From a virus (Duplodnaviria; Heunggongvirae; Uroviricota; Caudoviricetes): a DNA stretch of 47,664 nt. Location of the stretch: IMG/VR virus record IMGVR_UViG_2639762844_000003. One strand, given 5' to 3'. Under the pieces are notes generated by a model. The model was not told where the DNA came from and ran no database searches. It worked only from the letters and a program-made list of their open reading frames with translations. The position numbers were made by a program, and so were the translations under genes. Within the stretch, counting starts at the first letter, position 1, and each line of letters begins with the position of its first letter. Below, in pieces: positions 8,198 to 16,094 of the stretch.

Positions 8198-8599
8198 GTG
8201 GCAAAAGTTTTTACACAAGAAGAGCGGGAAAAAATTAAAGGGCAGGTGGTGGAACTCGTGCGCCAGAGCGGTCGTGAGACGTTACGGCAACTGGAAGCTA
8301 AAACAGGTGCGACTAGATATCTGATGAGCGTTCTTGCCAGAGAGCTGGTAGCCAGTGGCGATGTATACAACTCCGGCTACGGGTTATTCCCGTCTGAACA
8401 GGCGCGTAAGGACTGGCAAAACGCCCGCAAAAAACTATCGAGGGCAAAGGTGAAGAAAACAGCTGTGGTTGATCCGGACCTTATCTGGTCGTTACCTGAT
8501 GGAGAAATACGTCGCTACGACAGTCGCCTAAACATAATCTGTCGCGAGTGCCGGATGAGTGAAGTTATGCAGCGCATACTGGCATTTTATCAGGGATAA
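8198..8599 (+). CDS. Hypothetical protein
   Basis: 133-aa ORF with GTG start preceded by AAGGGGGA; backbone GC content. Confidence 0.55.
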   Translation: MAKVFTQEEREKIKGQVVELVRQSGRETLRQLEAKTGATRYLMSVLARELVASGDVYNSGYGLFPSEQARKDWQNARKKLSRAKVKKTAVVDPDLIWSLPDGEIRRYDSRLNIICRECRMSEVMQRILAFYQG

Positions 8600-8696
8600 T
8601 GTTAGGTATTTTAGACGTTACTAGATTAAAAAGCATTAGTTCAGGAGTGAATTGACATTCTCATTTTTCATGGCACAGGGTAGATCTGGCGTGGTT

Positions 8697-8720
8697 GTCC
8701 GCTTTGTGCCAGAAGCGGAC
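8697..8720. repeat. Hairpin GTCCGCTT-N8-AAGCGGAC at the left edge of the AT-rich island
   Basis: 8-bp perfect stem; a near-identical stem (GTCCGCT-N10-AGCGGAC) occurs at 10404-10427 at the island's right edge. Confidence 0.5.
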
Positions 8721-8799
8721 GTTACAATACAATCACTATGCTAATGCGCATTGATATGTGATATAACAATAATCAACCGTTCAAAAAGGAGCATTTATA

Positions 8800-9821
8800 T
8801 GAGCAGGATGATAATTGATACAAATATTCTTTACTCACTAGTTGGTCTGTCGACAAACCAAAAAATAATTAACTCCCCTATAGATCAATTCAAATTATCC
8901 ATTACGACACCATCACTCATAGAAGTGATCTCTAAATATTGCAATGACTTAGGGGCTGTAAAAAAATGCATTAGCCCAATCATAAACGGAAATATTGAAC
9001 TAATTAGCATTGGTCATACTCCAATCTCAAATGAATTTCTTTATAGGTTGCATTTTTCAGACAAAATAGACGAAGTAAAAGATATTATTGATAATGTTAG
9101 AGCACTAAAAATATCTAGAGAGGCTGAGTTTTATAGGTTCATACTCATACTGGTTGTCTCTGGTTTGTTTGAGGTTATTAGAGAAGATGGATACAAGTTT
9201 GATAACGATGTACAAAATCAAAGTCAACTTAGTCTTGTGCAGACTCTACTTGAATCTAATATGGAATTAATTTTAGACTTCTTTAAAGATGAGTTGCGGA
9301 ATGGATATATTAATGGAAATGAGCAGCAATCAGCTTTGAAAGCTTTTGAAACCATGCTTATCGGACTCCTACATGCTTTTCATGTCAACTATCATATGAT
9401 TAAAACTGACACAGTTAACATTTCCGGAAGCCAAGACAGACTCAAAAATCTGTATGATAGTATAAAAAATGATAATTTTGATAAAAAGTTTAAAAAATAT
9501 ATGGAGAATCCAATATCCCTTGCCTGCAAAAAAAAACACGAATCAGTAGTTGATAACTACCTGAAAGAAATGGAGGAGGGGATTTCTGGCGCTCGTGGGC
9601 TTACTAAGAATTCGTTGAGCTTTCTAATGAGCAAGGTTGAGGATGCATATAAAAATGGTCGTAAATTACGAAAAAATGACATATTTGACTTTCTAATAGT
9701 TATTTCTCTAAATATGCCAGACACTTTGATTTTAACACTTGATAAAGGTTTTTTAAAAGACCTTAAAGATCTTCACCCTAACAGCTATAAAAAGTGTCTG
9801 GATTTCGGTTTTGTAAATTAA
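8800..9821 (+). CDS. AT-rich cargo protein, 340 aa, unknown function; N-terminus weakly PIN-like
   Basis: AAGGAG Shine-Dalgarno then ATG at 8800; strongly AT-biased I/N/K/D-rich codon usage unlike the prophage backbone; N-terminal MIIDTNILYSLVG resembles a PIN first strand with its acidic residue; no other motif recognised. Confidence 0.6.
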
Positions 9822-10403
9822 AAATATATTGATGTAAAATAAAACGCACCCACATTTAACTTAGCTAGACTATATCCTTCAATTATTCTATCTGCTTTTT
9901 GTTAAATGTGGGGTTGCAGATGTTACGAGTCAATTAAATTTGCAAGTCAGGTAGAATTGATAAGAATTGCAATACGAATCCGTGAACATTAATGCTAACG
10001 CTAAGTATACGAAAGATATTGTAAATATACTTCTTTTTTTGTTTTTAAGTTCTTTTATTTGACAGTAGTTCCATCATTCAATTGCGTATTATCTTCCAAT
10101 GCCAGTGACACTCCCTCATTATGAGAGGATTGTGGTAATCAAAAGAAAAATTAATATCACGCCAAGAATATTCGAAACCAACCCTATGGTGTTAAGTCCT
10201 GGTGATGTCATTTAGTTTGCTCTAGGTTTATTATTCAGAAAGCAAAGAATATTCGTTAAATTATTATGTTAGCTTTAATTATTAAAAAACATGTTAATTA
10301 TCATCAAATGAGCACTTATCATCATTTTAGTCAAAGAGGTAGTGAGTATTCATTCTGGATCATAACTGCCTTCCTGTTTACGCTAGTGTTTTTTAAAGTC
10401 GAT

Positions 10404-10427
10404 GTCCGCTCATCGCTCAAAGCGGAC
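10404..10427. repeat. Hairpin GTCCGCT-N10-AGCGGAC at the right edge of the AT-rich island
   Basis: Same stem sequence as the 8697-8720 hairpin; the hok locus begins just downstream. Confidence 0.5.
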
Positions 10428-10892
10428 TAGAAGGTTAGCTTGTGTCGGACTTTGCGTATTAAATGACTAGTGGTTGAGCCCCATTTCCACAGAAAAAATC
10501 AGAGAAACTATACCCAATAGTTGTATTGAATCACTGACGAGACAGCCTCATATTCATCAGGACTGGTGTACGTCCAATACAGGAGGTTGTGGTGCTGGTT
10601 CTCAAATGTGCGCTGGCTATTACGGCTGTAATGGCGATTTATTGTCTTGCTATTGTTCTTATGGATCGCCTTTCTGACTGATTTCACATTGGCGAGGTAA
10701 CGGTAGTTAAGTAGAATGGCTGCGGGTGCTTGAGGCTATCTGCCTCGGGCATGAACACCAACGGCAGATAGAGAAAAGCCCCAGTTAACATTACGCGTCC
10801 TGCAAGACGCTTAACATTAATCTGAGGCCAATTTCATGCTAGACACATGTAGGTTAGCCTCTTACGTGCCGAAAGGCAAGGAGAAGCAGGCT

Positions 10893-11048
10893 ATGAAGCA
10901 GCAAAAGGCGATGTTAATCGCCCTGATCGTCATCTGTTTAACCGTCATAGTGACGGCACTGGTAACGAGGAAAGACCTCTGCGAGGTACGAATCCGAACC
11001 GGGCAGACGGAGGTCGCTGTCTTCACAGCTTACGAACCTGAGGAGTAA
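10893..11048 (+). CDS. hok: Hok/Gef-family type I toxin (membrane-depolarising peptide)
   Basis: 51-aa product MKQQKAMLIALIVICLTVIVTALVTRKDLCEVRIRTGQTEVAVFTAYEPEE, near-identical in pattern to Gef/HokC; in-frame upstream ATG at 10836 is mok-like. Confidence 0.8.
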   Translation: MKQQKAMLIALIVICLTVIVTALVTRKDLCEVRIRTGQTEVAVFTAYEPEE

Positions 11049-11117
11049 GAGACCCGGCGAGGGAGAAATCCCTCGCCACCTCTGATGTGGCAGGCATCCT
11101 CAACGCACCCGCACTTA

Positions 11118-11148
11118 ACCCGCTTCGGCGGGTTTTTGTTTTTATTTT
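11118..11148 (+). terminator. Rho-independent terminator after hok
   Basis: CCCGC-TTCG-GCGGG hairpin followed by a long T-run. Confidence 0.7.
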
Positions 11149-11264
11149 CAACGCGTTTGAAGTTCTGGACGGTGCCGGAATAGAATCAAAAATACTTAAG
11201 TAGCGCGCAGGGATAAGAGGGATGGTCCCTTAAAGGGGAGAGCTAATTATCCGGAAGGATTCTG

Positions 11265-14982: not shown

Positions 14983-15456
14983 ATACATATCTGGATTATC
15001 ACCTGTTACGGTAAAAAGTGATTGCTTACTGTTTTTGTGAATGGCATTGCAGCAGCCGGATAATGTCAGTGCTGGCTGACGGTGTGCTGGTGGCGGGTGT
15101 GGTGGTTGTTGCTTTCCCGTTGCTGAAAAAGAAAACGCCAGACTGTTAGCCGGGTATCAGTTAGCGGGAGAAATTTTTAAATACTTCACAATTCAGGCGG
15201 TTGACTGTTCTCTGGTTTGCGGGGAGTTTGTTAAAAGAAACTGGCATGGTGAATCCCCCTGTGCGGAGGGGCAATCAGCGAGTAGGTATATGGGATAATC
15301 GCGGATTCAGGTGCTGGTACTGAATTCACCGGGAGGCACCCGGCACCATGCACTTCAATAGATTCTCTCCACATTATGGATATTCTTTCAGAATATCCCA
15401 CGCAGACTTTGTGTAAATGTTAACAAATGTGCGTTTTATTTGATCTGATTCGCTGT

Positions 15457-15944: not shown

Positions 15945-16094
15945 TATTTATTGTTTTGTAATAAACGGTTTCGGCTTAGGTTTGTTCTGACACAACTACG
16001 GCACTGAGCTAAATCTAGCGGATAGTCAGCTCTGAGCCAGTGGCGGACGTAACAACTACTATTGCTGAGATTTTAATGGATTGAGGAGCAAGAA

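What the first reader, a model, noticed from the sequence alone, without database searches (positions are those of the whole stretch)
8697..10427. Hairpin-bounded AT-rich island with a 340-aa gene where relBE would sit next to hok
Base composition drops sharply between two hairpins that share the same stem (GTCCGCTT..AAGCGGAC at 8697-8720; GTCCGCT..AGCGGAC at 10404-10427). Inside are one well-initiated gene (8800-9821) with foreign codon usage and about 600 bp of AT-rich non-coding DNA. In Qin, hokD is the third gene of relBEF, yet no RelB/RelE-sized ORF lies upstream of hok here. This looks like a cargo swap at a toxin-antitoxin hotspot. The protein's N-terminus (MIIDTNILYSLVG) is reminiscent of a PIN first strand, so it is a candidate single-gene abortive-infection or defence nuclease, but this is tentative.
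Basis: partly seen in the sequence, partly recalled or inferred. Interest (0 to 1): 0.8.

Follow-up and report, generated by a model that had tools for sequence, protein, structure and literature searches.

The report
Repeat-bounded defence cassette with split-PIN nuclease
The AT-rich island is a discrete 1.7-kb mobile gene cassette, bounded by two conserved 24-bp inverted-repeat sites, that carries an uncharacterised PIN-type nuclease and belongs to a large family of anti-phage gene cassettes swapped between phages and satellites by an unknown mechanism.

Summary
Two hairpin-forming 24-bp sites (8697-8720, 10404-10427) bound a GC~0.32 island with one intact gene (8799-9821, not 8800). The "600 bp non-coding" DNA is a frameshifted remnant of a convergent 2-TM gene.

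The same cassette (~91% DNA identity) occurs in Enterobacter and Serratia elements, and homology ends at the two sites, exactly in Enterobacter and 4 nt inside them in Serratia. The same L/R sites bound at least 43 other cargoes, mostly known defence systems, downstream of lambdoid DUF977, P2 gene G (including fun(Z)) and umuC. Exchange breakpoints map inside the conserved 7-nt site cores.

Inverted repeats flanking P2 fun were reported in 2004. A 2026 study of P2/P4 hotspots still calls the swapping mechanism unknown.

K-12's relBE is a different rearrangement, not a swap between these sites. A defence function is inferred and untested.

The parts
8697..8720 (.). L site: a 24-bp inverted repeat that can form a hairpin (GTCCGCT-t-TGTGCCA-ga-AGCGGAC). 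It is the left boundary of the cassette.
   Evidence: Sequence. ssDNA fold -8.6 kcal/mol, z -3.0. Cross-genus homology starts exactly at 8697. The same site occurs in at least 120 viral contigs, in 39 non-redundant backbone contexts. Position 8 tracks the backbone and positions 16-17 track the cargo.
8706..8733 (+). Promoter-like match (GTGCCA-16 nt-TACAAT) that spans the L-site core and the first cargo bases.
   Evidence: Consensus scan only, 9 of 12 matches. The region as a whole is not clearly enriched in such matches (14 found against 9.0 +/- 3.3 in shuffles). Function is inferred, not shown.
8799..9821 (+). Gene for a 340-aa split-PIN protein (WP_022645725.1). PIN strands and helices lie at residues 1-70 and 290-340, with a helical insert at about 78-286. 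A Shine-Dalgarno sequence AAGGAG lies at 8786-8791.
9849..9912 (.). A 12-bp perfect inverted repeat (CCCACATTTAAC ... GTTAAATGTGGG) between the convergent genes. It may be a bidirectional terminator.
   Evidence: Read directly from the sequence. It was not picked up by the terminator scan, because the loop is about 40 nt. Its role is inferred.
9927..10211 (-). Decayed remnant of a 95-96-aa gene for a protein with two transmembrane segments. The gene is intact in the Enterobacter and Serratia copies.
   Evidence: The intact ORFs are L007 1974-2261(-) and L010 1597-1887(-). In the window the homologous DNA is spread over three reading frames and contains a stop. Only a 30-aa ORF remains, at 10119-10211(-).
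10404..10427 (.). R site: a 24-bp inverted repeat (GTCCGCT-ca-TCGCTCA-a-AGCGGAC), roughly the reverse complement of the L site (20 of 24). It is the right boundary of the cassette.
   Evidence: Sequence. ssDNA fold -7.2 kcal/mol, z -2.4. Cross-genus homology ends exactly at 10427. Backbone homology with other cargo variants starts inside the site core. Positions 1-9 track the cargo and positions 17-23 track the backbone.

Best explanation
Window 8697-10427 is a 1,731-bp mobile cassette, one member of a large family of anti-phage gene cassettes in Enterobacterales.

Each cassette is delimited by an L site (core TGTGCCA) and an R site (core TCGCTCA). Both sites have 7-bp inverted arms, GTCCGCT and AGCGGAC. 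The cassette entered the DUF977-to-hokD slot of this Qin-like lambdoid prophage by recombination within the 7-nt cores of pre-existing L and R sites, replacing earlier cargo. That the boundaries and breakpoints fall there is shown. The enzymology is not known. The options are a recombinase acting in trans or microhomology-driven template switching (inferred).

The cargo is one functional gene. It encodes a Mg2+-dependent PIN-family nuclease whose catalytic domain is split by a roughly 240-aa helical domain. I infer that this protein is a single-gene anti-phage (abortive-infection type) effector. In this model the insert holds the nuclease inactive or senses an infection cue, and the active enzyme then cleaves RNA (tRNA, rRNA or mRNA, as VapC-type PINs do) or nucleic-acid intermediates, stopping phage growth. 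The PIN fold and the conserved acidic residues are shown computationally. The defence role, the trigger and the substrate are inferred.
For: Cassette unit:
- blastn homology to the Enterobacter copies spans window 8697-10427 exactly, and to the Serratia copies 8701-10423, at about 91% identity, in three unrelated element contexts.
- A 63%-identical homolog also lies between an L and an R site.

Slot variability:
- The slot holds NUDIX+HAD or DUF4209 cargo between the same sites.
- This island is present in 72 of 5426 complete E. coli genomes.
- No genome has the two flanks within about 0.8 kb of each other, so no empty slot was found.

Site family:
- At least 120 viral contigs carry the L site.
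- They contain 80 L-to-R cassettes with 43 distinct cargoes, some in tandem arrays with a conserved 18-nt spacer.
- Cargo proteins hit PD-T7-1, PD-T7-5, PD-T4-2, ThsB, DarT/DarG, NsnA, LmuA, HEPN, GmrSD, RES and AbiC.

Breakpoints:
- Mutual-information analysis places them inside the site cores.

Reference phage P2:
- fun(Z) lies between an L-type site (P2 coordinate 15335) and a degenerate R-type site.

Neighbours of distant homologs:
- DarTG, a TerB-ATPase-helicase trio, Tn7-like transposon cargo and integrases.

Selection:
- dN/dS is 0.42-0.56.
Against: - There are no phenotype data.
- The protein matches no PADLOC model, so it is not a recognised defence system.
- No recombinase is linked to the sites in any context.
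- R-site stems often carry uncompensated mismatches (only 12 of 65 are perfect) and no compensatory covariation is seen. A hairpin structure as such is therefore not demonstrated to matter.
- The co-transferred 2-TM gene is decayed in E. coli, so the ancestral unit may have been a two-gene system that is now crippled.
- dN/dS of about 0.4-0.5 indicates only moderate constraint.
Confidence: 0.6

Rival explanations
1. The 24-bp elements are passive features, such as insulators, weak terminators or RNA 3'-end stabilisers of morons. Cargo exchange would then happen by ordinary homologous recombination in flanking phage genes, or by illegitimate or microhomology-mediated recombination (for example Red/RecT-type annealing or template switching at palindromes), with no dedicated site-specific system.
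For: No recombinase is linked to the sites in any context. Within Qin-like prophages the flanking DUF977 and hok DNA is highly conserved and could support homologous exchange. R sites are often degenerate. The 2026 P2/P4 study lists illegitimate recombination as a possibility.
Against: No T-run follows either site, and the terminator scan does not call them. The same 24 bp, including the loop sequence, is conserved in 39 (L) and 29 (R) unrelated backbone contexts, while conservation drops to background immediately outside apart from an inner RTT. Transfers between backbones end exactly at the sites, where no flanking homology exists. Breakpoints fall in the 7-nt cores. Cargo lies in either orientation relative to the sites, so the sites are not parts of a cargo promoter or terminator.
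Confidence: 0.3
2. The gene is the toxin of a toxin-antitoxin or addiction module (VapC-like) that stabilises the prophage rather than defending against phages. Its antitoxin would be lost, unrecognised, or supplied by the decayed 2-TM gene or by the insert domain.
For: The closest structural relatives are VapC toxins. The gene sits next to hok/sok, another stabilisation module. A second, co-transferred gene exists in other genera.
Against: No ORF lies in the 78 nt between the L site and the ATG, so there is no VapB-type upstream antitoxin. The putative partner is a pseudogene in the 100%-identical E. coli copies listed, yet the PIN ORF remains intact in all but one of the copies examined. Distant homologs have no conserved neighbour. 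At 340 aa with a 240-aa insert, the protein is unlike the 130-150-aa VapC toxins.
Confidence: 0.12
3. The protein serves the element itself, for example as an anti-defence factor, a host-takeover RNase, or a flap/5'-nuclease used in replication or recombination, rather than protecting the host.
For: PIN-like folds include FEN and 5'-nucleases. The slot lies just after the replication genes of the prophage.
Against: The gene is present in only 72 of 5426 genomes and is interchangeable with defence cargo. It also occurs in a satellite, in Tn7-like transposon cargo and in integrative islands beside DarTG and a Shango-like trio, none of which share a replication system. There is no PHROG family match.
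Confidence: 0.1

Closest known systems
Phage P2 fun(Z) moron and its flanking inverted repeats (Nilsson, Karlsson and Haggard-Ljungquist 2004, as summarised in PMC8987985)
   Same: The same site family. In P2 an L-type site, GTCCACTCTGTGCCAAAAGCGGAC (21 of 24 identical to the window's L site), lies 60 nt after gene G. A degenerate R-type site, TTCCGCTTCTCGCTCAAAGGAAAC, lies at the other end of fun(Z). The cargo is AT-rich, single-gene and anti-phage. Exchange at the repeats was proposed.
   Different: The backbone here is a lambdoid Qin-like prophage (the DUF977-to-hokD slot), not P2. The cargo is an unrelated PIN protein. The 2004 paper could not be read here, so how much of the wider distribution, the tandem arrays and the core-level breakpoints it already reported is unknown.
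P2 and P4 defence hotspots (Rousset et al. 2022, PMC9122126; Moura de Sousa et al. 2026, PMC13586616)
   Same: Variable loci in temperate phages and satellites that hold interchangeable anti-phage systems. About 30 of the 120 L-site contigs sampled place the L site just after the P2 tail-fibre assembly gene G.
   Different: Neither paper mentions hairpins, palindromes or inverted repeats. Both leave the exchange mechanism open. The present locus is in a lambdoid phage, and this one cassette is shared between a lambdoid prophage, another prophage and a P4-like satellite.
VapC-type PIN-domain ribonuclease toxins
   Different: A roughly 240-aa all-helical insert lies between the third PIN strand and the helix bearing the third acidic residue. 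There is no VapB antitoxin. The protein falls below the Pfam PIN threshold. No solved or viral predicted structure has the same overall architecture.
Integron gene cassettes and attC sites
   Same: Promoter-poor cargo units of one to three genes, bounded by structured imperfect-palindrome sites. They can be stacked in arrays and carry defence genes. Recombination occurs inside the site.
   Different: The sites are 24 bp, not 57-141 bp, and the consensus is different. There are two site types per cassette, in inverted orientation. No IntI or attI platform is present. The arrays are short. Hosts are phages and satellites.

Membership tests
PIN domain superfamily (PF01850-like nucleases) | An alpha/beta/alpha fold with a central parallel beta-sheet, superimposable on known PIN domains. 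| tested here: met
   [not shown]
PIN domain superfamily (PF01850-like nucleases) | Four conserved acidic residues in the canonical order: after strand 1, on helix 2, and two in the C-terminal half. | tested here: met
   D7, E42 and D297 are invariant, and D294 and D315 at least 90% conserved, across 51 relatives down to 15% identity. Whether they cluster in space could not be checked, because no coordinates were available.
PIN domain superfamily (PF01850-like nucleases) | A match to the Pfam PIN profile above its curated threshold. | tested here: not met
   The window protein gives no PIN hit even at E<=10. However, 23 of 51 family members hit PF01850 at E<=0.01 (best 5.5e-7) and 4 hit PIN_12.
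PIN domain superfamily (PF01850-like nucleases) | Metal-dependent nuclease activity. | not testable with these tools
   This needs biochemistry.
VapBC type II toxin-antitoxin module | A small antitoxin gene immediately upstream, co-transcribed with the toxin. | tested here: not met
   Only 78 nt separate the L site from the ATG, with no ORF between them. Homologs have no conserved neighbour.
P2 fun(Z)-type cassette bounded by inverted repeats | Cargo flanked by the same inverted-repeat sites that flank fun(Z) in phage P2. | tested here: met
   P2 has an L-type site at coordinates 15335-15358 and a degenerate R-type site before the FI promoter. The window's sites are at 8697 and 10404.
P2 fun(Z)-type cassette bounded by inverted repeats | The same cargo is found in different backbones, with homology ending at the repeats. 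| tested here: met
   Homology spans 8697-10427 (Enterobacter) and 8701-10423 (Serratia). Breakpoints lie in the site cores.
P2 fun(Z)-type cassette bounded by inverted repeats | Recombination at the repeats has been demonstrated. | not testable with these tools
   This needs genetic crosses. It is not known to have been shown experimentally.
Integron gene cassette | attC sites (R''-L''...L'-R' with a GTTRRRY core, 57-141 bp) together with an IntI/attI platform. | tested here: not met
   The sites are 24 bp with a different consensus. The annotated neighbourhoods show only phage-type integrases at element ends.
Catalogued anti-phage defence systems (PADLOC 2.0) | A match to a defence-system protein model. 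| tested here: not met
   The window protein gives no hit. Among 51 relatives there is only one hit, at chance level.
Catalogued anti-phage defence systems (PADLOC 2.0) | A location in a hotspot that otherwise holds known defence systems. | tested here: met
   Cargo proteins of sister cassettes hit 36 PADLOC families. Homologs lie beside DarTG and a Shango-like trio.

The most novel reading that the evidence does not exclude
The L and R sites could be the recombination sites of a dedicated, integron-like cassette-exchange system for defence genes. It would operate across lambdoid phages, P2-like phages, P4-like satellites and umuDC-linked loci in Enterobacterales.

Each site has 7-bp inverted arms around a 7-nt crossover core. 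The two cores differ, so L would recombine only with L and R only with R. That would give cargo replacement without an empty intermediate, catalysed by a recombinase acting in trans that has not yet been identified. The split-PIN protein would be a new single-gene abortive-infection nuclease.
Probability: 0.25. Interest if true: 0.9.

Novelty: new variant of a known kind. Interest (0 to 1): 0.68.

Why it matters
How anti-phage systems move between unrelated mobile elements is an acknowledged open question. [quoted passage not shown]

This locus gives a concrete, testable handle on that question. A 24-bp site pair delimits the cassettes. It is shared by at least four kinds of host locus, and exchange breakpoints fall in its 7-nt cores.

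The site pair also works as a discovery tool. Anything lying between an L and an R site is a candidate defence gene. That includes this PIN family with a large helical insert, which no profile library currently covers.

Tried and rejected
- **Rfam (E<=1) over 8500-11200:** only sok, outside the island.
- **Intrinsic terminator reading of the sites:** no T-run follows them, and the scan does not call them.
- **Target-site duplications or IS200/IS605-type ends:** the flanks show no duplication, and homology ends at the outer base of each site or 4 nt inside it. Rejected.
- **Integron attC:** site length and consensus do not fit.
- **Stem covariation as evidence for a functional hairpin:** none found. 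L stems are invariant and R stems are often mismatched.
- **Empty-site search with joined flanks:** none in 5426 genomes.
- **relBE as alternative cargo of the same slot:** rejected.
- **Foldseek against PDB and BFVD:** no full-length analogue.
- **afdb50 library:** unavailable.
- **The search for related loci with the divergent alignment A4:** failed. With A1 it returned only 5 loci.
- **Literature:** no paper contains the site sequences or WP_022645725. Nilsson 2004 and Odegrip 2006 are not held in the library.

Full report
**1. Observation.**
GTCCGCTTTGTGCCAGAAGCGGAC lies at 8697-8720 and GTCCGCTCATCGCTCAAAGCGGAC at 10404-10427. The shared-stem pattern is far above chance: 3 matches at up to 2 mismatches against 0.13 expected, and none of 100 shuffles reached 3. 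Both fold as ssDNA hairpins better than shuffled sequence, at -8.6 kcal/mol (z -3.0) and -7.2 kcal/mol (z -2.4). GC drops to about 0.29-0.36 between them, against 0.44-0.56 outside.

The downstream "non-coding" DNA is a decayed gene. In the Enterobacter and Serratia copies a 95-96-aa protein with two transmembrane segments is encoded convergently. In the window the homologous DNA (87% identical) is broken by at least 2 frameshifts and a stop.

**2. Context.**
The window is a Qin-like lambdoid prophage next to rspB. The gene order is int, xis, exo, dicB, a cI-like repressor, cro, ydaT, an O-like gene, DUF977, the island, hokD with sok, rem, ydfU, rusA and Q.

**3. The protein.**
Pfam, PADLOC, PHROGs and NCBIfam give nothing significant. 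Homologs are rare. There are 26 clusters at 90% identity among 5.8 billion proteins, and 154 representatives at 50% identity among 1.84 billion. Most full-length members are about 330-360 aa long.

Across 51 relatives down to 15% identity, D7, E42, E108, N293 and D297 are invariant, and T8, N9, Y12, D294 and D315 are at least 90% conserved. That is the PIN acidic set, in the canonical order. Twenty-three of the 51 relatives hit Pfam PIN. No relative hits a PADLOC model beyond chance.

The gene is under moderate purifying selection, with dN/dS 0.42-0.56 between genera. One of the two IS-bearing copies among the 72 E. coli genomes has an IS3 element inside the ORF.

**4. The island is a discrete cassette.**
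The 87%-identical homologs in Enterobacter hormaechei and Serratia liquefaciens sit in unrelated elements. One is a prophage tail-fibre/invertase region beside umuDC and a 1275-aa SIR2 protein. The other is at the primase end of a P4-like satellite. DNA homology to the window spans 8697-10427 exactly in Enterobacter and 8701-10423 in Serratia, at about 91% identity. A 63%-identical homolog also lies between an L-type and an R-type site, next to DarTG.

In E. coli the full island is in 72 of 5426 complete genomes, while one flank or the other is in thousands. Other genomes carry a NUDIX+HAD pair or a DUF4209 gene between the same sites, and the junctions fall at the sites. No genome has the two flanks within about 0.8 kb of each other, so no empty slot was found.

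**5. A family of such cassettes.**
- Sequence to the left of the site falls into a few backbone classes, while the sequence to its right is hyper-diverse.
- An R-type site typically follows 0.5-5 kb downstream. Some loci hold tandem arrays (L-cargo-R, an 18-nt conserved spacer, then L-cargo-R).
- Eighty L-to-R cassettes gave 43 distinct cargoes, mostly low in GC, with one to three genes in either orientation.
- The cargo proteins hit PD-T7-1, PD-T7-5, PD-T4-2, ThsB, DarT/DarG, NsnA, LmuA, HEPN, GmrSD, Mrr, RES, AbiC, RelA/SpoT and TIR.
- Host loci include lambdoid DUF977 (50 contigs), P2 tail-fibre assembly gene G (about 30; this is the Z/fun hotspot), the 3' end of umuC, a P2 gpD-like gene and lysozyme.
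- Reference phage P2 has an L-type site after gene G and a degenerate R-type site at the other end of fun(Z).

**6. Anatomy of the sites.**
The L site is roughly the reverse complement of the R site (20 of 24). Cassettes therefore have imperfect terminal inverted repeats, each of which is itself a palindrome. Across 39 (L) and 29 (R) non-redundant backbone contexts, conservation is confined to the 24 bp plus an inner RTT.

In L sites, position 8 co-varies with the backbone, while positions 16-17 co-vary with the cargo. In R sites, positions 1-9 co-vary with the cargo and positions 17-23 with the backbone. Exchange breakpoints therefore lie in the conserved 7-nt cores, TGTGCCA and TCGCTCA.

Stems show no compensatory covariation, and R stems are often mismatched. 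The functional form may therefore be a double-stranded inverted-repeat site rather than a hairpin. The layout of 7-bp inverted arms around a conserved core that differs between L and R resembles tyrosine-recombinase core sites arranged for cassette exchange. That is a hypothesis: no enzyme is linked to the sites.

**7. Comparison with what is known.**
A review states that Nilsson et al. [quoted passage not shown] The original paper could not be read here. The 2022 and 2026 P2/P4 hotspot papers do not mention hairpins, palindromes or inverted repeats, and both leave the mechanism open. No paper in the library holds the site sequences or the protein accession.

K-12's relBE arrangement is a different, larger replacement whose right junction lies 15 nt before the hok ATG. 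Only an L-like relic survives, between ydfW and flxA.

**8. Verdict.**
The PIN call and the cargo-swap reading are supported. The link to relBE is not. The defence function is inferred from the fold, from the stand-alone architecture and from strong guilt by association. It remains untested.

Noticed in passing
window 10589-10681 (+): An unannotated 30-aa hydrophobic ORF (MVLVLKCALAITAVMAIYCLAIVLMDRLSD) with a strong AGGAGG Shine-Dalgarno sequence lies in the conserved backbone between the R site and sok/hok. Against the diverged copy in L004, my by-eye count from the alignment is 4 synonymous and 3 conservative changes, which suggests a real small membrane peptide. It has no Pfam match.
   Followed up: partly
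window 16025-16048: A third, degenerate L-like site (GTCAGCTCTGAGCCAGTGGCGGAC, followed by GTAACAA) lies between two TolA-like genes upstream of the lysis genes. It does not fold as a hairpin (z 0.16). It recurs about 7 kb downstream of the DUF977 L site in several viral contigs (L056, L077, L086, L089, L107). It may be another slot or a relic of one.
   Followed up: partly
L003 about 7240 and L004 about 5040 (alignment A2, columns 242-255): A 14-nt insertion, AGAAGTGCTGGTGG, which contains a Chi site (GCTGGTGG), lies about 40 nt after the R site in some backbones. It is absent from the window and from L002.
   Followed up: no
L131 (K-12 MG1655), about 6996 in locus coordinates, between flxA and ydfW: An L-like relic, GTCCGCTAAGAGCAAGAAGCGGAA, survives at the left edge of the flxA-ydfV-relBE block of K-12 Qin.
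   Followed up: no
L005 1085-5064: In Enterobacter, an inverted L site lies immediately after umuC and faces a 1275-aa SIR2_2 protein. Several viral contigs also have an L site 13-17 nt after the umuC stop codon (61 nt in one contig), so umuDC-linked loci form another class of cassette slot.
   Followed up: partly
L070 and L074: Clusters of related hairpins have the same GTCCGCT/AGCGGAC arms but different cores (TGGGTCA, ACCCCC/GGGGGT). Further site classes may exist.
   Followed up: no
[not shown]
   Followed up: partly
L143 (NZ_CP099754) and L144 (NZ_CP147069): One E. coli strain has an IS3-family element inside the PIN ORF. Another has ISVsa5 inserted in the decayed 2-TM region of the cassette.
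   Followed up: yes
L009/L010 (Serratia), just upstream of the cassette: Two L-type sites lie in tandem, 17 nt apart, and the second has a degenerate 5' arm. The cassette is followed by a DUF6404 gene before the primase of the P4-like satellite.
   Followed up: no
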